Assembly (NCBI GenBank): GCA_016928395.1
Contig: JAFGKV010000144.1
Span: forward strand, 1 to 48,437
Length of the DNA: 48,437 bases
Reading direction: 5' to 3'
Origin: Candidatus Fermentibacterota bacterium
Lineage (GTDB): Bacteria > JAFGKV01
Position numbers and translations under genes: made by a program. Of this stretch, positions 223-9,723 are shown one piece after another. A model generated the notes under the pieces. That model was given only the letters and a program-made list of their open reading frames with translations, was not told the origin of the DNA and ran no database searches. How positions within the stretch are numbered: position 1 is the first letter of the stretch; every line of letters starts with the position of its first letter.

Positions 223-1329
223 CTACAGATCCGGGAACCACTCCGCCAGGATTCGTGGCCGCGGTCCCATGGCCTTCCACGGTGAGAAGACCCCTGGCCT
301 GGTGGCGCCGATCCAGGAAGGCAAGAACGGGCCTGGCAGCCCAAACCACTCCTTTGACATGATTGGTTGCGGATAGCCGAAATCCCTTAGATCGTCGAGA
401 CCGATGTCGGGTAAGAAGAGCGGCATCGCAAGGGTGAGTTTGGGGAAGTATGCGCATGCCCCGAAGCGGGGGGTGAGGGGCGGTCTGGTTCCCTGGATCA
501 CGTTCCGCCACACCGCCAGCGCACCCAAAGCATGCACACCATACTTCTGCACATACATGCCCCGAAGATCATGAATCACATCGATGTCCAAGGAATCCCC
601 GCGATCCTCGACGCGCACTGTAGTCGCCCGGCCGCACACTCGCGATTCGAAGAGCAGGTCTATCGTGTCGCCATCGTCCAAGGGAAACTCCCTCAGCAGC
701 ACGGGAACGCGCCCCCTCCCGGGAATCTTGATGGCCCGTCGAATCATTCGAAGGCCTCCGTGGCTGGGCTCCACGTGCTCGTCGTGACGAGGCGGCATAT
801 CGTAGTGAAGACAGAGCACGCCCCGGCCGATGAATCCCCCTTGGACGAACCTCAGCGGATACACTGCGGCATTGGGGTAGCGGTCACGGAAGGGTGCCAG
901 GGCGTCGTCACCGCTCAAGGCGAAACCTTGAGCATCACGCGTCATGTCCACCACTAGTCTGAAGCCGTCCCAGGTTCGCAGTTGCACGAAGACCCGGGCC
1001 CGCTCCTCCGCATCCTTCACCCCGTCAGCGGGTCCTGCAAAGTGATGCGCATCGGCCGTGAGAACGATTGCGGCATTGTGCGCCGCGTACGCCGCTCCCA
1101 ATGATTCGATGCTGGCCGCCCGCAGTTGCCGGGCTCCTGCGGAAGAGGCCACATCGCAGGCTGCGCAGGGGTCTTCGGCCGGGTTGCCTCGCGGCAGGGA
1201 CGGGCCGGCAGCCGCATGGTAACCGACGAGAATGCATAGCGACCCAAGCAGATGAAACACAGGGCTTTTCACGACGAACCCCAAGCCCGCAAGAATCCTC
1301 ATGGGATGCCCGCGACGCAGATAGACCAT
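223..1329 (-). CDS. Hypothetical protein, probably exported
   Basis: 368-aa ORF, longest in the region; hydrophobic N-terminal stretch ending YHAAA; no family recognised; start could be 1302 or later. Confidence 0.65.
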   Translation of the reverse strand: MVYLRRGHPMRILAGLGFVVKSPVFHLLGSLCILVGYHAAAGPSLPRGNPAEDPCAACDVASSAGARQLRAASIESLGAAYAAHNAAIVLTADAHHFAGPADGVKDAEERARVFVQLRTWDGFRLVVDMTRDAQGFALSGDDALAPFRDRYPNAAVYPLRFVQGGFIGRGVLCLHYDMPPRHDEHVEPSHGGLRMIRRAIKIPGRGRVPVLLREFPLDDGDTIDLLFESRVCGRATTVRVEDRGDSLDIDVIHDLRGMYVQKYGVHALGALAVWRNVIQGTRPPLTPRFGACAYFPKLTLAMPLFLPDIGLDDLRDFGYPQPIMSKEWFGLPGPFLPSWIGATRPGVFSPWKAMGPRPRILAEWFPDL

Positions 1330-1798
1330 GGTTGACGGGAGACTGTTGGCAATGATCCCGCTCCTCGAACCCCCCCTCCAGACTTCCTCCCGTGACGCCG
1401 AGTTCTGAGCACACAGGGTCAGTCATCAGTTGCACGCTCCCCGATCGAGACGCTACCGACTCCTCCCACCCGTTCACCCATCCTCCCGCCATTCTATGCC
1501 CCGCACGCGTTCGTGCGAAGTGAAGCCTGCTTCCCGTTTGGTGAAACGACTGTCACCGAAACGGATCCTCACGGGGGATCGGAGGAAGGGGAAGAGGTGT
1601 TTCAAGAGGAGATGAAGCACGTAACAACCTTGTGCGACAACGGTGCCTGCGCAAGTCAAAGAGGCCGGCACGCATGTCGTGGAGTCCCTGGTCTGTGGCA
1701 TGCGTATTGCTTGACGATGCTGCAGCGCCGGCCAACTTCATCCCGGTACTCGATGAACCAGCCACCCGCCTGACCGCAGGCAGTTCGGAGGAATCCTC

Positions 1799-3178
1799 GT
1801 GACGCGATGTTTGGTTTCTGGATTACTCATCACCGCCATCGTGGCCGCCGCGCTCCTCGTGCCGGGAGATGGCAATGCCGGCCCGGGCAAGGGAGCTCTC
1901 ACCATCGTCTACACGGGAGACGTAGTCGGCACCATAGAACCCTGTGGGTGAGGCGGCGCCCAACAGGGCGGGCTGGCCCGGCGGGCCACCATACTCAGCA
2001 GATTCAGGGATGAGGGCGAGTATCTCCTTGTGGATTCAGGCGATTTCTCGGGGAAGAACAATGTGCAGGGCCGCTTTCAGGCGGAAGCGGTATTGGAGTC
2101 CATGGCCAGGGCCGGGTACCACGCCGCTGCCCTGGGCGAACGTGAGCTTGGCCTGGGCAGAGCATTCGTTGATTCCATCATCGAGGCCATGCCGTTCCCG
2201 CTGCTGGCAGCCAATCTGGTCGATCCCGTCACGGGCGCACGATTAACCAAGACCTATGAGATCGTCGATGTCGGCACGGTGCGGGTCGGCATTCTCGGCC
2301 TGGTCATGAAGACCGCACCGGGAAACGTTGACACCGCAGTCTTCAGGATCGAAGACCCCATGCAGTGGGCACAACAACTGGTACCGGAGATAGCGGCCAA
2401 GAGCGACGTCGTGGTGGTGCTCGCCCACTTAGGCTGGGGAGGGGCGTTCTCCCTGGCGCAACAGGTCCCCGGAATCGATGTCATCGTGTCCGGCCATGGG
2501 TCGTATGCCACGGAACAGCCTCAACGGGTAGGTGAGACTGTGCTCGTCCAGGCGGGGGATCAGGGCAAGCGGGTCGGGCGCCTGAGCATCACGGGCGAGA
2601 TAAAGAAGGGGAAATTCTCGGGAACACTGACTACTCTGGGCAGAGATGTACCCGATGATCCTGACATCAAAAATCTCGTTTCGCACTACAGCATTCGGGT
2701 CAGGGAGTACTACTCCAGCCTCAACCACGGTGCCCGTACATCCCCTGCACCCACGCAGGTCAGCCAGCGTTACGGCGGTGCACAGCAATGCCGCGCATGC
2801 CACGCCCCGGTGTATGAGCGATGGCTGGAGACCGGGCATTCCCATGCCATGGCAACGCTGGAGCACAGAGGCAAGCACTTCGACCCCGAGTGCGTCCGGT
2901 GCCATAGCACAGGCTACGGAAAGCCGACCGGTTTCATCAGCATGAAGGTGAACCCTGATCTCGCCAATGTCCAATGTGAGCAATGTCACGGCCAAGGCAG
3001 CCTGCATATCATGTACCGTACCAAGGGCGATGCGTCCCTGGAGGGGTTGAATCCCGTTATGGCAGAGAGGGCACGGAAGTTCCCGGTGGTTGGGCCAACG
3101 GTGTGCCTCCAGTGCCACACTCCCGATCGGGACCCCGATTTCACCTACCGGGAGGGAGACCTCACCGGTATCCACTAG
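1799..3178 (+). CDS. UshA/5'-nucleotidase-like (seleno)protein fused to a tetraheme cytochrome c domain; in-frame TGA 1949-1951 read as Sec (codon 51)
   Basis: RBS GGAGGA 1787-1792 and GTG 1799 in frame with the 2030..3178 ORF; MTRCLVSGLLITAIVAAALLV signal peptide, LTIVYTGDVVGTIEPCG-[TGA]-GGAQQGGLARRAT, VDSGD, LAH and SGH metallophosphoesterase-like motifs; CRACH, CVRCH, CEQCH, CLQCH heme motifs. Confidence 0.85.
1952..1990 (+). promoter_or_regulatory. Candidate bacterial SECIS element
   Basis: Hairpin TGGCCC-GGC-GGGCCA (1974-1988) with a G-starting loop 28 nt after the UGA; a second hairpin CGCCC-AACA-GGGCG at 1957-1970. Confidence 0.55.
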
Positions 3179-3475
3179 GCTCTCTGCGGATGCAGTCGCT
3201 CAGGTGACAGGGTTCTCCAGAGACATCGATGACAGAAAGGTGGCCTCGCCGAAGACTGGAAGCACCTAATGCGAGTCGGCAGCCCGGGCGCAAGGTGCCG
3301 CACTCTGAGGTCCGAAGCGGATGGCTCTGTCTAGACGGGGATGTGGACGTGGGCAAGACTGAACTTCCCGAACCCCGAACCCTTGCTCGTACCCGGGTAT
3401 ACGGTCCAAGGTCAGTCACCACAGAGATTGCTAGACCATTGACTATCGAACGCCGGTCGAGAAGAGGGGGCCGCC

Positions 3476-4864
3476 ATGCACCACCCAGATAGGACCCGCG
3501 GCATACCCCGTGCGGTGGCCTTGCACTATTCCGTTGCGCCGGCCGTGCCCGCGTCTGCCGAGGATGGTGTGGTGGAAGTGGTAGCTGCAGAGGCGCTTGT
3601 GCCTGCATCCGTAGCGGAGATCGAACAACTGACAGGTGTTCGGATTCGCGTGTCGGGCGTTTCCCGAGAGGGCTACCAGGCGAGGCTTGCGCAGGTCTAC
3701 GGCATCGGGGCTGCCGCCATTGAGGAAGACCGAGCGTCTCCTCCCCCAGGAGAGGCCATCCTGCCTCCCGAGGCAGGCGTCGTTCGCTTTGTTGACGAGA
3801 TTATCGCTGAGGCCGTGCGGCGAGGGGCCACCGATCTGCACCTTGAACCCTCCGTCGATGGCCTGCGTATCCGCCTCCGCGTCGACGGGTTGCTACAGGC
3901 CGTGCAGGCACCCCACGATCTGACCGCTCACGACCGGCGTATCGTAGCCCGAATCAAGGTCATGGCCGGCCTTGACTCGACTCCCTCGACAACGCCCCGG
4001 GACGGCGCGATCCGCCGAGACGGGCGAGACCTCAGGATTTCCGTACTGCCGACTGCGGCAGGCGAGGCCGTGCATGTGCGCATTCTGCCGCAGTGGGGCG
4101 ACTTCCCTACTGTGGAAGAACTGGGCGTTTCCCCTGACAGGGGCCGCATGTTGCGGAACCTCATGCGGATGCGCAGCGGGCTTGTGGTGGCGTGTGGACC
4201 AACAGGCTCGGGAAAGAGCACGACGCTCCACGTTCTGCTCCGCACTGGCGTTCCGTCTACGGAGAAGGTCATCACTGTGGAAGATCCGGTGGAGTTTCGA
4301 ATTCCGGAAGCGGTGCAGGTCGAGGTGAGCCCCGTGCTCACCTTCGCTGACGCCCTTCGGGCGGTTCTGCGCCATGATCCCGATGTGATACTGGTGGGTG
4401 AGATGCGCGACGCGGAGAGCGCACGGATCGCCCTGCAGGCTTCCCTCACGGGCCACCTCGTGCTCACCAGCCTTCATACCGACGATGAGGCGCAAGCCAT
4501 CACCCGCCTCTTGACGCTGGGCATGGATCGTCCCCTGCTGGCGGCCGCGCTGAGAGCGCTGATCTCTCAGCGGCTGGTCCGCAGAGGGTGCAGGGCATGC
4601 CAGGGAACCGGCTTCTCGCACAGCAGTCAGTGCGAAGTCTGCCGGGGCAGTGGTTACCGGGGACGGGTTGGACTGTTTCGCGTCACCATGGTCCGCGCTC
4701 TGGTTCGCCAGATGATCGAGGGCGGATCCCCAGAAGAGGAGATTCGGGAGCACATGGACAGCGCTGGTGAGCCATCGCTGCACGCACAGGCCCGGCGGAT
4801 GGCTGATGAAGGCATGACCACAGAGGCCGAGATCGCGCGGGTCATGGGATTGTCGATGCCATGA
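3476..4864 (+). CDS. gspE: GspE/PulE family type II secretion/pilus assembly ATPase
   Basis: ATDLHLEP, RLRVDGLL, Walker A GPTGSGKSTT, TVEDPVE, LRHDPDVILVGEMRD, TGHLVLTSLH, Zn-site CRAC...CEVC. Confidence 0.93.
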   Translation: MHHPDRTRGIPRAVALHYSVAPAVPASAEDGVVEVVAAEALVPASVAEIEQLTGVRIRVSGVSREGYQARLAQVYGIGAAAIEEDRASPPPGEAILPPEAGVVRFVDEIIAEAVRRGATDLHLEPSVDGLRIRLRVDGLLQAVQAPHDLTAHDRRIVARIKVMAGLDSTPSTTPRDGAIRRDGRDLRISVLPTAAGEAVHVRILPQWGDFPTVEELGVSPDRGRMLRNLMRMRSGLVVACGPTGSGKSTTLHVLLRTGVPSTEKVITVEDPVEFRIPEAVQVEVSPVLTFADALRAVLRHDPDVILVGEMRDAESARIALQASLTGHLVLTSLHTDDEAQAITRLLTLGMDRPLLAAALRALISQRLVRRGCRACQGTGFSHSSQCEVCRGSGYRGRVGLFRVTMVRALVRQMIEGGSPEEEIREHMDSAGEPSLHAQARRMADEGMTTEAEIARVMGLSMP

Positions 4865-5859
4865 ACCCAGACGCTCAGGCTGACTACTGCGCGGATTTGG
4901 CGCTGCTCTTGCAGCACGGAACCCCCATGGCCGAGGCGTGCGACCTCCTGGCCGGGGAGGCAGGTGTGGGGTCGATCGAGATGCAGATCGCATCCGGCGT
5001 GAAGAGCGGCGAATCACTCCGCCACGCCCTGGAGGCTACCCGTGTGCCCTCCTGGGCGCTGGCTGCAGTCGAGGCCACGGAGACCACGGGAAGGCCCGCC
5101 GATGGTCTCGACCTGGCCTCCCGGGTGCTCCGGGAGCATCGGGTCTGGCGCGACCGGATGATCCGAGTGACCACCTATCCGCTACTAGTGCTGGGTTCGT
5201 CGCTGCTGCTGGGCCTCATTCTGTTCCGCAGCATCCTCCCCACCATCTCTGTCTTGGCCGAGGAGTTGGGGGCAGATCTCCCGTTGGCCACGCGCACGGC
5301 GTTGGTTCTTGGCCACGCAGCGATGTCTCCGGTAGCCTGGGTGATTGCCCTCGTCGCGCTTGGTGGCACCTTGGCCCTGGCATCAGACCAGGGCCGGCTG
5401 CGTGCCGCGGCATCGAGGCTGCCCGTCATGGCAGAGGTCATCCGTATGGACGAATCCCGGCGGTACTTCGGCGTCCTCGGCGCACTACTGGCAGCCTCGG
5501 TGCCCTTGGATCGAGCCATGGAAAGGACGGCGCACTTGGTCGTCAACGCCTCGTGGCACGCGGAAGTACTCGAGCTGGCGCGCAGGGTGCGAGCGGGTGA
5601 CTCGCCGGCTGCAGCGGCCCGAGATGTGCGGTGGTTCCCCACACGGGTGGCCAGGGTCCTGGCGGTAGCCGAGACCGCCGGCACACTGCATCAAGCGTGC
5701 AGCTCATTGGCCGATTATGCCGAGCGTGTCCTGACCAGGCGGCTCGATGGGCTGGCCCGATGGGTGCCGCTGATTCTACTGGCCGCAGCGGCCGCGTTCA
5801 TCGCATTCCTCGCGCAGGCCTTACTCATGCCTGCCTTCCAGATCGACATAGCTCTGTGA
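4861..5859 (+). CDS. gspF: Type II secretion system F family inner-membrane protein
   Basis: ATGA overlap with gspE; GESLRHAL, TYPLLVL, LGADLPLATR, AETAGTL and C-terminal TM; position between gspE and gspG. Confidence 0.85.
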   Translation: MNPDAQADYCADLALLLQHGTPMAEACDLLAGEAGVGSIEMQIASGVKSGESLRHALEATRVPSWALAAVEATETTGRPADGLDLASRVLREHRVWRDRMIRVTTYPLLVLGSSLLLGLILFRSILPTISVLAEELGADLPLATRTALVLGHAAMSPVAWVIALVALGGTLALASDQGRLRAAASRLPVMAEVIRMDESRRYFGVLGALLAASVPLDRAMERTAHLVVNASWHAEVLELARRVRAGDSPAAAARDVRWFPTRVARVLAVAETAGTLHQACSSLADYAERVLTRRLDGLARWVPLILLAAAAAFIAFLAQALLMPAFQIDIAL

Positions 5860-5867
5860 GGTACATC

Positions 5868-6293
5868 ATGCGACGGTCTCGTTCTGGCTTTACTCTACTC
5901 GAGCTGATGCTCGTTCTGGCGATTCTCGCTGCGTTGGCCTATATGGCAGTGCCTCGCTTCGCCGGTCGTGCTCGCCGGGCCAAAGTGGCCACGGCCGGTA
6001 CCGACATCCGGCTTAATCTTCCCGCAGCTCTGGATATGTACGAATTGGACAGTGGGATATACCCCACGACGCAACAGGGTCTGGCAGCCCTCATCGAGAA
6101 GCCGGTCACCGAACCAGCGCCTGCAGGCTGGGATGGCCCCTACCTCAGGCGGCCCGTGCTTCCTCGCGATCCGTGGGGCAATCCCTATGTCTACCGCCAC
6201 CCTCCTACCAGGCCGGGTCTGGACTACGAGATCCTTTCCGCCGGCCCCGACGGCATCGAAGGCACGGCCGACGACATCACGAACTGGGAGTGA
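5868..6293 (+). CDS. gspG: Type II secretion major pseudopilin GspG
   Basis: RBS GAGG then ATG 5868; prepilin motif SG|FTLLELMLVLAIL; ALDMYELDSGIYPTTQQGLAAL, WDGPYL, DPWGNPYVY, SAGPDGIEGTADDITNW. Confidence 0.95.
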   Translation: MRRSRSGFTLLELMLVLAILAALAYMAVPRFAGRARRAKVATAGTDIRLNLPAALDMYELDSGIYPTTQQGLAALIEKPVTEPAPAGWDGPYLRRPVLPRDPWGNPYVYRHPPTRPGLDYEILSAGPDGIEGTADDITNWE

Positions 6294-7725
6294 GCCCAGG
6301 ACTCTGCGGCATCTCCACGACCATGATGCGCTGCTCGGTCATCTCACGGATGGCCGAGGCGACCCCCTCCCGGCCTAAGCCCGAATCCTTCACACCCCCG
6401 TACGGCATACTGTCAACCCTGAACATCGAGGAATCGTTCACGATGACGCCGCCGACGTGCAAGGCATCGAAGGCCGCCAGAGCACTATCGAGCCTTCCGG
6501 TAAAAATTCCCGCCTGGAGCCCGAACCGTGAGCCGTTCACCGCATCGAGGGCCTCGCCCAGGCTGCTGTAGGGCTGCACCACTGTGAGCGGTGCAAACGC
6601 CTCCTCAGCCACAACCCGGCACGACTCCGGCACATCAGCCAAGACTGTCGCTTCCACCAGCCTGCCCCGACGTTTCCCACCCATCAATAGCCTTCCCCCC
6701 GCGTCCACCGCCTCACGAACCCATTGCTCGATCCGCGATGCGGCCGCATCGTTGATCACCGGACCGATGTCGGTGGCAGGATCCATGGGATCGCCCAGCT
6801 TGAGGGCATTCACCTCGGGCAGATAGTGTTCGTGGAATGCATCCCACGCGCTGCGGTGCACAAAGACACGCTGCACCGAGATGCACACCTGCCCGGCATA
6901 TGCGTAGCCTCCCACCGCAATCCTCTTCGCCGCACGGGCAAGATCCGCATCTGGTTCAACGATTACCGCCGCGTTTCCCCCCAGTTCGAGGCATACGCGT
7001 TTCTTACCGCAGGCGCCCTTGACACCCCAACCCACCTCGGCGCTTCCCGTGAAGGTGACCATGGCGATCCGTTCATCGGCAACCAGGACCCCGGCGTCAG
7101 CGGCGCTGCACGGCACCACATTGCACGCTCCCGGAGGCAGTCCCGCCTCGCTGAGGATCTGGGCCAGACGCAGGGCGGATATCGGCGTCGCCGAGGCCGG
7201 CTTCACCACGATGGCATTGCCGGCGGCCAGGGCAGGCGCCACCTTGTGGGCTACCAGGTTCAAGGGGAAGTTGAACGGTGTGATCCCCGCGATGGCGCCG
7301 ATGGGCATCCGCCGGGTAATGCCGAGACGACGCGTGCCGTTGGGGCTCACATCCAACGGCAAGGCTTCACCCGCCAAGGCTGATACCTCCCCGGCCGCGA
7401 GGGAAAAGGTCACCGCCGCGCGGCGTACCTCGGCCCTGGCATGCCGGATGGGCTTGCCCGCTTCGCCCGCGATGATCTCCGCCAGCTCGTCTGCGCGCTC
7501 CGAGAGCAGGCCGGAAGTACGCCGGAGGATCTCCTGGCGCCGGTAGAGCGCCGTGTCCCGCATGATGCGCGCTCCGAGAATCGTTGCCTCGATGGCACGC
7601 TCCACCAAGGCGCCATCGCCCCAACTCACCTCGGCCACGAGCCCGTCATCATAGGGGCTGCGTATGCCTCGCGTGAGCGTGCCCTCGATAGGGCATCCGT
7701 CGACGAAAGGAAAGAATCTCTTCAC
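6277..7725 (-). CDS. Aldehyde dehydrogenase family protein
   Basis: ITPFNFPLNL, KPAS, FTGS, LELGGNAA, GQVCIS (catalytic Cys), EEAFAP, PYGGVKDSGLGREG; GTG 7725 with GGAGGT RBS; overlaps the gspG 3' end by 17 bp. Confidence 0.95.
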   Translation of the reverse strand: MKRFFPFVDGCPIEGTLTRGIRSPYDDGLVAEVSWGDGALVERAIEATILGARIMRDTALYRRQEILRRTSGLLSERADELAEIIAGEAGKPIRHARAEVRRAAVTFSLAAGEVSALAGEALPLDVSPNGTRRLGITRRMPIGAIAGITPFNFPLNLVAHKVAPALAAGNAIVVKPASATPISALRLAQILSEAGLPPGACNVVPCSAADAGVLVADERIAMVTFTGSAEVGWGVKGACGKKRVCLELGGNAAVIVEPDADLARAAKRIAVGGYAYAGQVCISVQRVFVHRSAWDAFHEHYLPEVNALKLGDPMDPATDIGPVINDAAASRIEQWVREAVDAGGRLLMGGKRRGRLVEATVLADVPESCRVVAEEAFAPLTVVQPYSSLGEALDAVNGSRFGLQAGIFTGRLDSALAAFDALHVGGVIVNDSSMFRVDSMPYGGVKDSGLGREGVASAIREMTEQRIMVVEMPQSPGLTPSS

Positions 7726-7857
7726 GGCGCACCTCCATATCCTCGCATGCATGGCGCTCTCCCGTGAAAACGGGCCGACACGCGTCCGCGGTTTCCTCGC
7801 AGGGGCTCTTCTGCTTTCTTGCCTCGTACAACTCGTACCCGATGGAAAGAGATGTCA

Positions 7858-9723
7858 ATGAAGCGCATGCTCTTGGTGGTGCTCGTCCTTTCCTGCACCC
7901 GCACGAATTCCCCTGAGATAGCCCATCCTTCCGCCAGCGACGGGCACGGTACCGCGTGGGTTCTGCCGTGTGACCCCGTGGTGGCTGGGTCCCGCGGCAC
8001 ATGGGATTTCGTGTTCAAGGCGGGCAAAGGCGGCCTGCCGCCCGGAGGCGGCATTGTGTTCCAAGTGACGCCCTTCTGGGGCTGGTCGCCACCTCAGATT
8101 TCCGATCCCGCCCGGCCCGGGTTCTGCAGCGTCAGCACCGCTGCCTCGTGCAGCCTTGTTCCCTATGCCGACTCGGGCAGAATGTACCTTCTGGCCCAGG
8201 TCCGCGGCAGAGCCTTGGCCGAAGGCGAGGAGGTGGCATTTCGGTATGGTGACACGGGCGAGGGTCGCCACCCCGGTGGCGCCGCTTCCGTCGAGCCCTA
8301 TGCGGAGCGCTATCAAGAGTTCCTGATCAAGACCGATGGCGATGGCGACGGCGTCTATGGCGAGATCCCTGTGCAGCCTGGATTGCAGGTGCGCGCGCGG
8401 CCCGCGTCAGACCTATGGGTGAACGCACCGAGCCTGGTGACTCCCGGCCAACCCTTTGCCGTGACGGTGGCGGCATTGGACGAGGCCGGCAACTGCGACG
8501 AAGACTATCGGGGGGAGATCGCTATTACCGTGAACGGCCATGCCTCCGCGCCGGCGGTTCTTTGCCTCAGCGAGCAGGATCGGGGTGCGGGCCGGTTCGA
8601 GGCAACGATGCCCGGCCCCGGCGTGGTGATGTTCGCCGTCGTAGACGAAGTTTGCGGACTGGCGGCGCGATCAAATCCGGTGCTGTGTGGATCCGCAGGA
8701 CGCTTCCATCGCGTGTTCTGGGGTGATATCCACGGCCACACCGGCCTCAGCGACGGTACCGGGACGCCCGGCGACTACTATCGCTATGCCCGGGATGTGG
8801 CGGGCCTGGATGTAGCCTCGGTCACCGATCATGATTCCTGGGGGTTCCGCCCCCTCAAGGGCGTGTCGTGGGACAGCGTGACCGCGGCGACGGCACGCTA
8901 CCATGAACCCGGGCGCTTCGTGACAATCCTGGCGTACGAATGGACCAGTTGGACCTATGGCCATAGAAACGTCTACTTCCCCCACGACTCGGGAGAGGTC
9001 TTCCCTTATGACGATGAGGCCACCGGGACGCCCCAGCAGCTGTGGAGGATGCTGAAGCCATGCAACGCCATGACCATTGCCCATCATTCCGGCGGCGGTC
9101 CCATCGGTACCGACTGGTCGGTTCGGCCCCCACCGGATCAGGAGATGCTGGTGGAAGTCTTCTCCGTGCACGGTAGCTCGGAGTTTTGGGGCTGCCCCGG
9201 CTCGATTTACTCGCCGGTGGAGGGCCGATTCGTGCAGGATGCGTTGGCACGGGGTTATCGCCTGGGCTTCTTGGCATCGGGAGACGGGCACATCGGCCAT
9301 CCGGGCCGGTGGAGCCCCGGCAACACCCAAGGCCTGGTGGCCTTCCAGGCCGACACGTTGACGCGGGAGGCCGTCTGGAGAGCCCTCATCACCCGTCGAG
9401 TCTACGGTACGTCGGGATCCCGCATTCTGCTCCAGTTCACCGTGAACGACATGCCCATGGGGTCGGAACTTCCCTCAACGGCTGGAAAGAACCCCCGGCG
9501 CATCGACGTCGTGGCATGTGGTACTGCGCCGGTCAGCTCCATCGATATTGTGAAGAACGGTGAGGTGTGGCGCAGCGTCGCCGCCGAAGGCGTCGTCGCC
9601 ACCTTCTCGGAGACAGACAGCAGTCGCGTCGACGTGGGCGACTACTATTATGCACGAATAGTGCAGCTGGATGGTCACATGGCCTGGTCGAGCCCCGTGT
9701 GGATCGGGCAAGGACAGGAGTGA
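7858..9723 (+). CDS. PHP-like metallohydrolase lipoprotein (DUF3604 / CehA-McbA-like)
   Basis: Lipobox LVLSC; WGDIHGHTGLSDG, VTDHD, AYEWT, GHRNVYF, IAHH, EVFSVHG, GFLASGDGHIGHPG, YYYARIVQ...AWSSPVW. Confidence 0.85.
   Translation: MKRMLLVVLVLSCTRTNSPEIAHPSASDGHGTAWVLPCDPVVAGSRGTWDFVFKAGKGGLPPGGGIVFQVTPFWGWSPPQISDPARPGFCSVSTAASCSLVPYADSGRMYLLAQVRGRALAEGEEVAFRYGDTGEGRHPGGAASVEPYAERYQEFLIKTDGDGDGVYGEIPVQPGLQVRARPASDLWVNAPSLVTPGQPFAVTVAALDEAGNCDEDYRGEIAITVNGHASAPAVLCLSEQDRGAGRFEATMPGPGVVMFAVVDEVCGLAARSNPVLCGSAGRFHRVFWGDIHGHTGLSDGTGTPGDYYRYARDVAGLDVASVTDHDSWGFRPLKGVSWDSVTAATARYHEPGRFVTILAYEWTSWTYGHRNVYFPHDSGEVFPYDDEATGTPQQLWRMLKPCNAMTIAHHSGGGPIGTDWSVRPPPDQEMLVEVFSVHGSSEFWGCPGSIYSPVEGRFVQDALARGYRLGFLASGDGHIGHPGRWSPGNTQGLVAFQADTLTREAVWRALITRRVYGTSGSRILLQFTVNDMPMGSELPSTAGKNPRRIDVVACGTAPVSSIDIVKNGEVWRSVAAEGVVATFSETDSSRVDVGDYYYARIVQLDGHMAWSSPVWIGQGQE

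What the first reader, a model, noticed from the sequence alone, without database searches (positions are those of the whole stretch)
1799..3178. Hidden selenoprotein: CxU UshA-like domain fused to a tetraheme cytochrome c
Seen: RBS + GTG 1799 gives a signal peptide and LTIVYTGDVVGTIEPCG, then TGA (1949-1951), then the frame continues uninterrupted into the 2030..3178 ORF and four CxxCH motifs. Without read-through the cytochrome part has no export signal (c-heme attachment is extracytoplasmic) and the metallophosphoesterase domain loses its first strand. Established: UshA-like proteins with CxU/CxC motifs are a recognised but functionally uncharacterised selenoprotein family. Inference: Sec51 coupled to a tetraheme wire in one exported polypeptide suggests a redox enzyme (for example acting on sulfur, selenium or metal compounds) rather than a nucleotidase. 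Standard gene callers would miss it.
Basis: partly seen in the sequence, partly recalled or inferred. Interest (0 to 1): 0.87.

Follow-up and report, generated by a model that had tools for sequence, protein, structure and literature searches.

The report
Known UshA-like four-heme selenoprotein gene
The in-frame TGA is almost certainly a real selenocysteine codon in one exported protein that joins a remodelled 5'-nucleotidase-type domain to a four-heme cytochrome, but this protein family is already catalogued and only its function remains unknown.

Summary
GTG 1799 to TAG 3179-3181 is one frame with a single in-frame TGA (1949-1951), giving 459 residues with U51 in the motif P-C-G-U.

Evidence that the TGA encodes selenocysteine:
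- At its column, 131 related loci aligned well: 82 have TGT/TGC, 48 have TGA, 1 is cut, none has another residue.
- A hairpin with a GGC loop lies 28 nt after the TGA (1974-1988). It recurs in 39 of 41 unique Sec-type sequences against 20 of 62 Cys-type, and its stem shows paired changes.
- The genome holds selA, selB, two selD and a tRNA-Sec with anticodon TCA.
- TGA is otherwise an ordinary stop.

It is not new. The protein scores 313.6 bits against NCBIfam NF041198 "UshA-like (seleno)protein" (cutoff 275), and that profile already spans both the phosphoesterase and heme parts. Reviews from 2008, 2022 and 2026 list the family. This scan has noted it before on other DNA, in at least 62 genomes.

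A redox role rather than a nucleotidase role is plausible: the metal ligands are degenerate and the nucleotide-binding domain is replaced by hemes. It is untested.

The parts
1787..1792 (+). Shine-Dalgarno-like GGAGGA, 6 nt upstream of the GTG start
   Evidence: read directly
1799..3181 (+). full coding sequence of the UshA-like (seleno)protein, 459 residues plus the TAG stop, with TGA 1949-1951 read as Sec
   Evidence: (NF041198 313.6 bits, cutoff 275)
1799..1879 (+). predicted Sec-type signal peptide (about residues 1-27: MTR, hydrophobic core 4-21, then PGDGNA). The cleavage site is inferred.
   Evidence: hydropathy; N-terminal helix 3-19 and low-confidence linker 22-29 in the model; hydrophobic N-termini in most rows of A2. 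No signal-peptide predictor was available.
1943..1951 (+). C49-G50-U51 codons (TGT GGG TGA); the Sec codon is 1949-1951
   Evidence: 82 Cys, 48 TGA at this column; C49 33/34, G50 32/34, C/U51 33/34 rows
1974..1988 (+). SECIS-type hairpin UGGCCC-GGC-GGGCCA: 6 bp, GGC loop at 1980-1982, loop starting 28 nt after the UGA
   Evidence: -9.5 kcal/mol; same kind of hairpin in 39 of 41 unique Sec-type sequences against 20 of 62 Cys-type; 91.6% of cells paired against 23-46% when slid
1957..1970 (+). first small hairpin (CGCCC-AACA-GGGCG) between the UGA and the SECIS-type hairpin; role unknown
   Evidence: MFE fold. Similar hairpins occur in many Sec-type relatives, but in a shifted register. Not formally tested.
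1895..2716 (+). 5'-nucleotidase-type metallophosphoesterase-fold domain (residues 33-306) with degenerate metal ligands
   Evidence: PF00149; alignment to 5h7w, 2z1a; Foldseek: CD73, UshA, about 310 columns
2762..3178 (+). cytochrome c554-like tetraheme domain (about residues 322-459)
   Evidence: PF13435, E 1.7e-16; profile positions 346-518; 1bvb cytochrome c554
2789..2803 (+). CxxCH heme-binding motif 1 (C331-H335)
   Evidence: 34/34, 34/34, 33/34
2891..2905 (+). CxxCH heme-binding motif 2 (C365-H369)
   Evidence: 33/34 each
2975..2989 (+). CxxCH heme-binding motif 3 (C393-H397)
   Evidence: 33/34 each
3104..3118 (+). CxxCH heme-binding motif 4 (C436-H440)
   Evidence: 33/34 each

Best explanation
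Bases 1799-3181 encode one exported 459-residue protein of the catalogued UshA-like (seleno)protein family (NCBIfam NF041198, 'PCGU'). Shown or strongly supported by computation: UGA 1949-1951 is decoded as selenocysteine. An mRNA hairpin at 1974-1988 (GGC loop, 28 nt after the UGA) is of the kind that SelB-GTP-Sec-tRNA(Sec) binds, and the genome has selA, selB, selD and tRNA-Sec. Inferred: a signal peptide takes the protein across the membrane, where four c-type hemes are attached at its CxxCH motifs. The N-terminal domain keeps the 5'-nucleotidase metallophosphoesterase fold but has lost most of that enzyme's metal and catalytic residues. The nucleotide-binding C-terminal domain of 5'-nucleotidases is replaced by a cytochrome c554-like four-heme domain. 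Across the family, selection acts on the loop C49-G50-U51 just after the first strand (where the DxH metal ligands would sit), on G57, G58, R61, N139 and D227, and on the hemes. My preferred mechanism (about 55%) is a Cys/Sec redox pair that turns over a small periplasmic substrate, most plausibly an inorganic sulfur or selenium species or a thiol/disulfide, with electrons passing through the four hemes. The substrate is unknown.
For: One frame with a single TGA. NF041198 scores 313.6 bits against a cutoff of 275, and its 519-position profile matches both the N-domain (3-266) and the heme part (346-518). At the TGA column, of 131 loci with score >=60 (161 examined), 82 are Cys codons, 48 are TGA and 1 is cut; no other residue occurs. 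All 13 closest database proteins (56-100% identity) are called truncated at 355-402 aa and start after that column. All 18 Sec-type relatives read through give 448-593 aa proteins, each counted with 4-5 'CH' dipeptides, the script's proxy for CxxCH. The SECIS-type hairpin is present in 39 of 41 unique Sec-type sequences, mostly at the same 28-nt offset, against 20 of 62 unique Cys-type sequences at scattered offsets. In the named helix 91.6% of cells pair, against 75.0% in shuffles (0 of 500 reach it) and 23-46% when slid; 31 cells change on both sides (0 of 500). In the own genome, selB scores 342 bits, selA 527 bits, two selD copies 395 and 370 bits (one with its own in-frame TGA), and tRNA-Sec 76.8 bits with anticodon TCA. 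TGA ends 10 of 23 long ORFs in the window, so the code is not reassigned. The window sits in a 5-row all-Sec clade (support 100). For the non-nucleotidase reading: DxH becomes DVV and GNHE becomes GERE against solved 5'-nucleotidases. The motif III Asn column holds N in 0 of 34 rows and the His columns hold H in 6 of 34, while C-G-C/U, GG, R61, N139, D227 and the heme motifs are kept in 32-34 of 34. There is no PF02872 C-terminal domain. The model (pLDDT 88.9) matches only about 310 columns, the N-domain, of CD73/UshA.
Against: No experiment shows selenium or heme in this protein. The 71-nt stretch around the TGA does not fold better than shuffles (z -1.20; 28 of 200 shuffles fold as well). 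RNAalifold on all 41 aligned rows returned no consensus structure. Only one covariation measure, pairs with a change on both sides (4 of 7), was reached by 63 of 500 shuffles. The hairpin overlaps the conserved peptide GGLARRA, so coding constraint contributes, and the helix was named after looking at these same sequences. Rfam gave no hit in the window. The only DNA run holding the stretch may be the source sample, so it is not independent, and the RNA contigs stop at 1919, before the TGA. I had no model coordinates, so the proximity of the CxU loop to the hemes or to the residual metal site was not measured. Some possible metal ligands remain in this protein (D41, D82, H210, H233), so a metal-dependent hydrolytic role is not excluded.
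Confidence: 0.9

Rival explanations
1. The protein is a genuine selenoprotein but works as a hydrolase on the old phosphoesterase scaffold, for example SoxB-like release of sulfate from a thiosulfonate or another ester hydrolysis. Residual metal ligands would do the chemistry, and the hemes would serve only as an electron sink or docking module.
For: The second-best NCBIfam match is thiosulfohydrolase SoxB (TIGR04486, E 4.9e-27, 94.4 bits), and SoxB structures match at E 1.2e-11. This protein keeps D41, D82, H210 and H233.
Against: The SoxB score of 94.4 is far below its cutoff of 550. Across 34 family rows the metal-ligand columns are loose: D41 20, D82 23, H210 25, H233 21, motif III Asn 0, and both His columns 6 of 34. 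The strictly kept residues are the C-G-C/U loop and the hemes.
Confidence: 0.2
2. The TGA is a true stop. The locus would then hold two genes: a 50-residue exported peptide (1799-1951) and a separate 382-residue cytochrome starting at GTG 2030.
For: Table 11 gives exactly these two ORFs. The database holds a 371-aa call of the downstream part (P0001). The single-sequence fold is not significant.
Against: Protein conservation runs across the TGA, with Cys in 82 and TGA in 48 of 131 aligned loci. The NF041198 profile aligns from position 3 across the TGA. The downstream ORF alone would lack a signal peptide and the first strand of the fold. A conserved hairpin follows the TGA, and the Sec machinery is complete.
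Confidence: 0.03
3. The TGA is a sequencing or assembly error, or a recent inactivating mutation of a TGT/TGC Cys codon (a pseudogene).
For: The genome is a draft of 343 contigs. Only one DNA run holds the stretch, and it may be the source sample.
Against: An independently built contig of that run has no differences over 1700-3300 at word depth 11.3. In the tree, the 4 other rows of the window's 5-row clade (L110, L108, L029, L109; support 100) all have TGA at the same codon, and TGA recurs there in 48 loci overall. The matching hairpin is present.
Confidence: 0.02
4. UGA is read here as another residue (Trp, Gly or Cys) through a genome-wide code change, not through Sec insertion.
For: None specific. 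Alternative codes that read UGA as a residue do exist in some uncultured bacteria (recalled, not from a call).
Against: TGA ends 10 of 23 long ORFs in the window. One is the T2SSE gene, whose Pfam match runs to residue 455 of 462. A tRNA-SeC (TCA), selA and selB are present.
Confidence: 0.01

Closest known systems
NCBIfam NF041198 'UshA_like_PCGU', UshA-like (seleno)protein. Listed as 'COG0737, UshA-like, CxU' in PMC2398784 (2008) and as 'UshA-like protein' in PMC9312934 (2022) and PMC13188914 (2026); I saw only the passages found by term search.
   Same: The score is above the curated cutoff (313.6 against 275). The profile covers both the phosphoesterase-like part and the four-heme part. The P-C-G-U motif, the exported architecture and the Sec/Cys alternation at one column all match.
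   Different: Nothing architectural. This copy is a divergent member, at most 81% identical to any database protein other than its own truncated call. It comes from a lineage whose closest named relatives are MAGs labelled Candidatus Eisenbacteria and Fermentibacteria. It is unannotated as a selenoprotein: the database call is 371 aa.
5'-nucleotidases of COG0737 (E. coli UshA, human CD73, Thermus 2z1a)
   Same: The N-terminal metallophosphoesterase fold matches: Foldseek E about 1e-22 over about 310 columns and sequence E 8e-20. The GD, H210 and GH233 positions are kept.
   Different: DxH becomes DVV and GNHE becomes GERE. The C-terminal nucleotide-binding domain PF02872 is absent and replaced by a tetraheme domain. 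A C-G-U loop has been added.
Thiosulfohydrolase SoxB (TIGR04486; PDB 2wdc)
   Same: It is the same superfamily and the second-best NCBIfam hit (94.4 bits). It is periplasmic and tied to sulfur chemistry, which makes a sulfur substrate a reasonable guess.
   Different: The score is far below the cutoff of 550. The dimanganese ligand set is not conserved. SoxB has no hemes and no CxU.
Cytochrome c554 of Nitrosomonas (PF13435; PDB 1bvb/1ft5)
   Same: The C-terminal domain matches PF13435 over the full profile (E 1.7e-16) and 1bvb at E 1.4e-6. It has four CxxCH motifs.
   Different: Here the heme domain is fused to a Sec-bearing catalytic-type domain and is not a free electron carrier. NF043010 scores 40.4 against a cutoff of 400.
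NCBIfam NF049981 'UshA-like (seleno)protein family 2' (CxxU)
   Same: It is a related phosphoesterase-like selenoprotein family (76 bits).
   Different: The score is below the cutoff of 140. Its motif is CxxU, not CxU, and its profile of 262 positions has no heme part.

Membership tests
NCBIfam NF041198 UshA-like (seleno)protein (PCGU) | whole-protein HMM score at or above the curated cutoff (275 bits) | tested here: met
   313.6 bits, E 2.2e-93; 305.7 bits when summed in the genome search
NCBIfam NF041198 UshA-like (seleno)protein (PCGU) | P-C-G-U/C motif in the loop after the first strand | tested here: met
   EPCGU at residues 47-51; the column holds Cys or TGA in 130 of 131 aligned loci, with 1 cut
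NCBIfam NF041198 UshA-like (seleno)protein (PCGU) | C-terminal multiheme part covered by the profile (positions about 346-518) | tested here: met
   profile 346-518 matched at 2603-3148, 135 bits; four CxxCH motifs
Bacterial selenoprotein (SelB/SECIS-dependent) | in-frame UGA aligned with Cys in homologues, with conservation on both sides | tested here: met
   82 Cys and 48 TGA; alignment A2
Bacterial selenoprotein (SelB/SECIS-dependent) | stem-loop shortly downstream of the UGA with G in the apical loop (the bSECIS criteria, recalled: loop 16-37 nt from the UGA) | tested here: met
   6-bp stem, GGC loop, 28 nt from the UGA; 39 of 41 Sec-type against 20 of 62 Cys-type; pair counts. Caveats: z -1.2 for the single fold, no RNAalifold consensus, and binding to SelB not testable here.
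Bacterial selenoprotein (SelB/SECIS-dependent) | selA, selB, selC and selD in the same genome | tested here: met
   all above the curated cutoffs; tRNA-SeC, anticodon TCA
Bacterial selenoprotein (SelB/SECIS-dependent) | selenium actually incorporated at the UGA | not testable with these tools
   needs 75Se labelling or mass spectrometry
5'-nucleotidase / UshA (COG0737) as an enzyme | complete dimetal and catalytic residue set (DxH, GD, GNH(E/D), H, GHxH) | tested here: not met
   DVV in place of DxH, GERE in place of GNHE, GHGS in place of GHxH
5'-nucleotidase / UshA (COG0737) as an enzyme | C-terminal substrate-binding domain (PF02872) | tested here: not met
   no PF02872 hit at E <= 0.1; NF007109 UshA scores 57.6 against a cutoff of 600
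Thiosulfohydrolase SoxB (TIGR04486) | score at or above the curated cutoff (550 bits) | tested here: not met
   94.4 bits
c-type multiheme cytochrome | CxxCH motifs together with an export signal | tested here: met
   four CxxCH motifs conserved in 33-34 of 34 rows. The hydrophobic N-terminus exists only if the TGA is read through. Heme attachment itself is not testable here.

The most novel reading that the evidence does not exclude
The NF041198 family, this gene included, could be an uncharacterised class of periplasmic selenoenzyme. A Cys-Gly-Sec redox centre, built where the dimetal site of a dead 5'-nucleotidase scaffold used to be, would be wired directly to four c-type hemes. It would oxidise or reduce a small inorganic sulfur or selenium compound, or a thiol/disulfide. 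No known selenoenzyme combines these parts. This is a question about the whole family and is not specific to this window.
Probability: 0.45. Interest if true: 0.6.

Novelty: new member of a known kind. Interest (0 to 1): 0.25.

Why it matters
For this genome the result is an annotation fix. A gene now called as a 371-aa signal-less cytochrome is really a 459-aa exported selenoprotein, which adds one entry to the organism's selenoproteome. It also confirms Sec use in a poorly known lineage. More broadly, the family is widespread and, among the 108 sequences on the tree here, needs only a few Cys/Sec switches (at least 5). It is strictly conserved at the C-G-U loop and the hemes, yet no paper I could search assigns it a function. 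It is therefore a reasonable target for biochemistry. This window adds no new leverage on that question beyond another sequence and a good structural model.

Tried and rejected
1. Rfam at gathering thresholds over the whole window gave no family. This says little, because a curated bacterial SECIS model for this family may not exist.
2. RNAalifold on all 41 aligned post-TGA sequences predicted no consensus pairs. I then tested a named helix instead, which carries the bias that I chose the helix from these same sequences.
3. The single-sequence fold of 1940-2010 is not more stable than shuffles (z -1.20).
4. The promoter/terminator scan of 1300-3600 found no terminator-like site and no useful promoter upstream of 1799.
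5. Reads: the RNA runs X3 and X4 laid nothing. X2 gave two 151-nt contigs covering only 1700-1919, so neither transcription across the TGA nor the codon itself could be checked in RNA. X1 may be the source sample.
6. The neighbourhood gave no functional lead. A T2SSE/T2SSF pair follows the gene here and in 3 of 3 close orthologue loci with flank (L110, L109, L046). It does not follow in L048 (AhpC/TSA-like next) or L101 (response regulator next). I read this as lineage synteny.
7. The maximum-likelihood tree with the default treekit search did not finish in 300 s, so I used FastTree. Its deep branches are unreliable and it reported long-branch warnings.
8. I could not measure distances between the CxU loop, the residual metal ligands and the heme motifs, because model coordinates are not exposed by the tools.
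9. The literature searches 'selenocysteine + multiheme + metallophosphoesterase', 'selenoprotein + tetraheme + nucleotidase' and 'SoxB-like + multiheme cytochrome' each found 0 papers. One search failed on a term format and was replaced.
10. Supplementary files of the selenoproteome papers are closed. They may hold family alignments that mention the heme domain.
Full report
**Observation.** GGAGGA (1787-1792) lies 6 nt before GTG 1799. Translating 1799-3181 gives one frame with a single internal TGA at 1949-1951, in the context LTIVYTGDVVGTIEPCG-U-GGAQQGGLARR. The frame holds four CxxCH motifs (residues 331-335, 365-369, 393-397, 436-440) and ends at TAG 3179-3181. Under table 11 the frame splits into ORFs 1799-1951 (50 aa) and 2030-3178 (382 aa). 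The N-terminus has a positive residue (R3) followed by a hydrophobic stretch at residues 4-21, as expected of a Sec-type signal peptide. No dedicated predictor was available, so the cleavage site is inferred.

**Family.** With U read as C, the protein matches NCBIfam NF041198 'UshA_like_PCGU, UshA-like (seleno)protein' at 313.6 bits, above the curated cutoff of 275.
- The 519-position profile matches the window in two pieces, positions 3-266 at 1835-2593 and positions 346-518 at 2603-3148. The curated family therefore already includes the heme part, and the fusion is not new.
- Pfam sees PF13435 (cytochrome c554-like, E 1.7e-16) and PF00149 (metallophosphoesterase, E 4.6e-5). It sees no PF02872, the C-terminal substrate-binding domain of 5'-nucleotidases.
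- SoxB (94.4 bits, cutoff 550), UshA (57.6, cutoff 600) and UshA-like selenoprotein family 2 (76, cutoff 140) all fall below their cutoffs.

**Is the TGA a Sec codon? Homologues.** I fetched loci encoding relatives from relatives' genomes, from genome contigs (62 loci) and from metagenome contigs (80 kept of 157). I aligned window residues 31-130 to each locus.
- Of 161 loci examined, 131 aligned with score >=60. At the column of U51, 82 have TGT/TGC, 48 have TGA and 1 (L047) is cut by the contig end. The partner Cys49 is present in all 130. The other 30 loci scored below 60 and were not counted.
- Many rows are near-copies, notably a large group labelled SAR324, so these are not 130 independent events.
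- The 13 closest database proteins (56-100% identity) are all called at 355-402 aa and begin downstream of this column. More distant full-length proteins show ...EPCGC....
- All 18 Sec-type loci that I read through give complete 448-593 aa proteins with hydrophobic N-termini; the script counted 4-5 'CH' dipeptides in each as a proxy for CxxCH.
- On a FastTree tree of 108 rows (11 dropped: 7 too short, cut, or with fewer than 3 'CH' dipeptides; 4 duplicates), the window lies in a 5-row clade that is entirely Sec-type (support 100). The Sec/Cys label needs at least 5 changes, 2 of them forced by well-supported branches, against about 35 in shuffles. Deep branches carry long-branch warnings.

**Is the TGA a Sec codon? 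RNA.** Downstream of the TGA the window folds into two small hairpins. The second is UGGCCC-GGC-GGGCCA at 1974-1988, with a 6-bp stem and a GGC loop starting 28 nt after the UGA.
- I applied one explicit criterion: at least 6 contiguous pairs, a loop of 3-8 nt, G in the first two loop positions, and the loop 16-37 nt from the codon. These criteria are recalled from bacterial SECIS descriptions and come from no call.
- 39 of 41 unique Sec-type sequences have such a hairpin. I gave the script 47 of the 48 Sec loci, leaving out L046 because its context equals that of L029. Most of these hairpins sit at the same 28-nt offset; a Desulfobacteraceae-labelled group sits at 19 nt.
- 20 of 62 unique Cys-type sequences have one, at scattered offsets. 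I gave the script 71 of the 82 Cys loci, leaving out 11 whose context looked identical by eye.
- On an alignment of 41 of the 42 unique Sec-type sequences (L075 omitted by oversight), the named 7-pair helix has 91.6% of cells paired. Shuffles give 75.0 +/- 1.5% (0 of 500 reach the observed value) and slid controls give 23-46%. Both sides change in 31 cells (0 of 500), with pair types such as A-U, C-G and U-G at one position.
- Against this, the measure 'pairs with a change on both sides' (4 of 7) was reached by 63 of 500 shuffles. RNAalifold on the same alignment gave no consensus structure. The single-sequence fold is not better than shuffles (z -1.20). Rfam gave nothing. The helix also overlaps the conserved peptide GGLARRA and was chosen from these sequences. 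I take the Sec-versus-Cys contrast and the fixed offset as the strongest points.

**Is the TGA a Sec codon? Machinery and code.** The window's genome has 343 contigs and is 94% complete.
- It encodes selB (342.4 bits, cutoff 242), selA (527.4, cutoff 268) and two selD copies (395.1 and 369.7, cutoff 125), the second with its own in-frame TGA.
- It also has a tRNA-Sec (76.8 bits, gathering score 47) that ARAGORN calls tRNA-SeC with anticodon TCA.
- TGA terminates 10 of 23 long non-overlapping ORFs in the window, so the code is not reassigned genome-wide.
- A Logan contig from the one DNA run that holds the stretch reproduces 1700-3300 with no differences at word depth 11.3. That run may be the source sample. 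The RNA contigs reach only 1919.

**What the protein is likely to do.** Alignment to solved 5'-nucleotidases (5h7w, 2z1a) shows DxH replaced by D41-V-V43, GNHE by G-E114-R115-E, and GHxH by G-H233-G-S. The GD Asp (D82) and H210 are kept.
- In a 34-row family alignment the former metal-ligand columns are loose: D41 in 20 rows, D82 in 23, H210 in 25, H233 in 21; the motif III Asn column holds N in 0 rows, and the two His columns hold H in 6 rows each.
- In the same alignment C49 (33), G50 (32), C/U51 (33), G57 and G58 (34), R61 (33), N139 (32), D227 (33), every CxxCH residue (33-34), H347 and H403 (33) and the C-terminal His (27) are kept.
- An AlphaFold2 model built on this alignment is confident (mean pLDDT 88.9, pTM 0.83). 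Foldseek matches it to CD73, E. coli UshA and the Thermus 5'-nucleotidase at E about 1e-22, but only over about 310 columns, which is the N-terminal domain.
- The scaffold is therefore a 5'-nucleotidase N-domain with a decayed dimetal site. A strictly conserved Cys-Gly-Sec/Cys loop follows the first strand, and the nucleotide-binding domain has been replaced by a c554-like four-heme module.
- I infer a periplasmic redox enzyme in which the Cys/Sec pair is the reactive centre and the hemes carry electrons (about 55%). A hydrolase on residual metal ligands is the main rival (about 20%).
- I could not measure distances in the model, because coordinates are not exposed.

**Context.** The gene is followed by a T2SSE ATPase (3476-4864) and a T2SSF protein (4861-5859). 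An aldehyde dehydrogenase (6277-7752, minus strand) and a DUF3604 protein (7819-9723) come next. The T2SSE/T2SSF pair also follows the orthologue in L110, L109 and L046, but not in L048 or L101. I read this as lineage synteny with no clear functional message.

**Comparison with what is known.** PMC2398784 (2008; passages seen) lists 'COG0737, UshA-like, CxU' among the major selenoprotein families of the GOS data. It notes that this family, unlike most, has no recognised Cys-based redox motif. PMC9312934 (2022; one passage seen) and PMC13188914 (2026; passages seen) list 'UshA-like protein', the latter citing NF041198 and a second family, NF049981 (CxxU). None of the passages I saw mentions the hemes or a function. 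Searches for a functional study found nothing (0 papers each; only the 2026 review). Supplements were closed.

This scan has also met the family before on other DNA. A word search returned 73 earlier notes in at least 62 genomes, and the eight shown all reached the verdict 'known NF041198 family, function untested'. My own calls reached the same conclusion before I read those notes.

**Verdict.** This is a genuine but unannotated selenocysteine gene, a new member of a known kind. The only open question, what the family does, belongs to the family as a whole and not to this window.

Noticed in passing
own genome G000:C22:4999-5931 (locus L020) and G000:C199:54349-55278 (L019): There are two selD genes. 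The one on C22 has an in-frame TGA and so is probably itself a selenoprotein. The one on C199 lies in a 783-aa open frame, which suggests SelD fused to another domain.
   Followed up: no
window 3476-5859; L110 4388-5761; L109 4297-5670; L046 5142-7526: A T2SSE ATPase (with an MshEN domain in two orthologue loci) and a T2SSF protein directly follow the selenoprotein gene. This holds here and in 3 of 3 close orthologue loci with enough flank. In L110 the gap is 7 nt. More distant relatives (L048, L101) lack it.
   Followed up: partly
window 1957-1970: A first small hairpin (CGCCC-AACA-GGGCG) lies between the UGA and the SECIS-type hairpin. Many Sec-type relatives have a C-rich/G-rich hairpin at about the same place (Pro-Pro codons pairing with Gly-Gly codons), but in a register shifted by one. 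Its role is unknown.
   Followed up: partly
L050, L052, L054, L055, L116, L121 (first 66 nt after their TGA): One Sec-type subgroup (context KPCGUHELQAGGLSRQ) has its hairpin (GGCGGGGG-GGCU-UUCUCGCC) at 19 nt, not 28 nt, from the UGA. The SECIS position therefore differs between clades of the same family.
   Followed up: partly
own genome G000:C178:21007-21762 and G000:C53:2619-5123: The same genome holds paralogous UshA-like phosphoesterase domains without stops. One lies in a 538-aa frame (106.8 bits). Two lie in tandem in a 1210-aa frame (58.4 and 49.7 bits).
   Followed up: no
window 7819-9723: A 634-aa ORF has only a weak, partial DUF3604 match (E 5.2e-15, profile 135-210 of 591).
   Followed up: no
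window 223-1329 (minus strand); L110 1647-2762 (minus strand): The divergently oriented upstream ORF (368 aa) has no Pfam family. An ORF of similar size (371 aa) with no Pfam hit sits upstream of the orthologue in L110. I did not compare the two.
   Followed up: no
window 1700-1919: Two 151-nt contigs from a sediment metatranscriptome run of another study (X2) lie on the 5' end of the gene and its upstream region, with 2-5 differences. This is a weak hint that a close relative is present or transcribed there. DNA carry-over is not excluded.
   Followed up: partly
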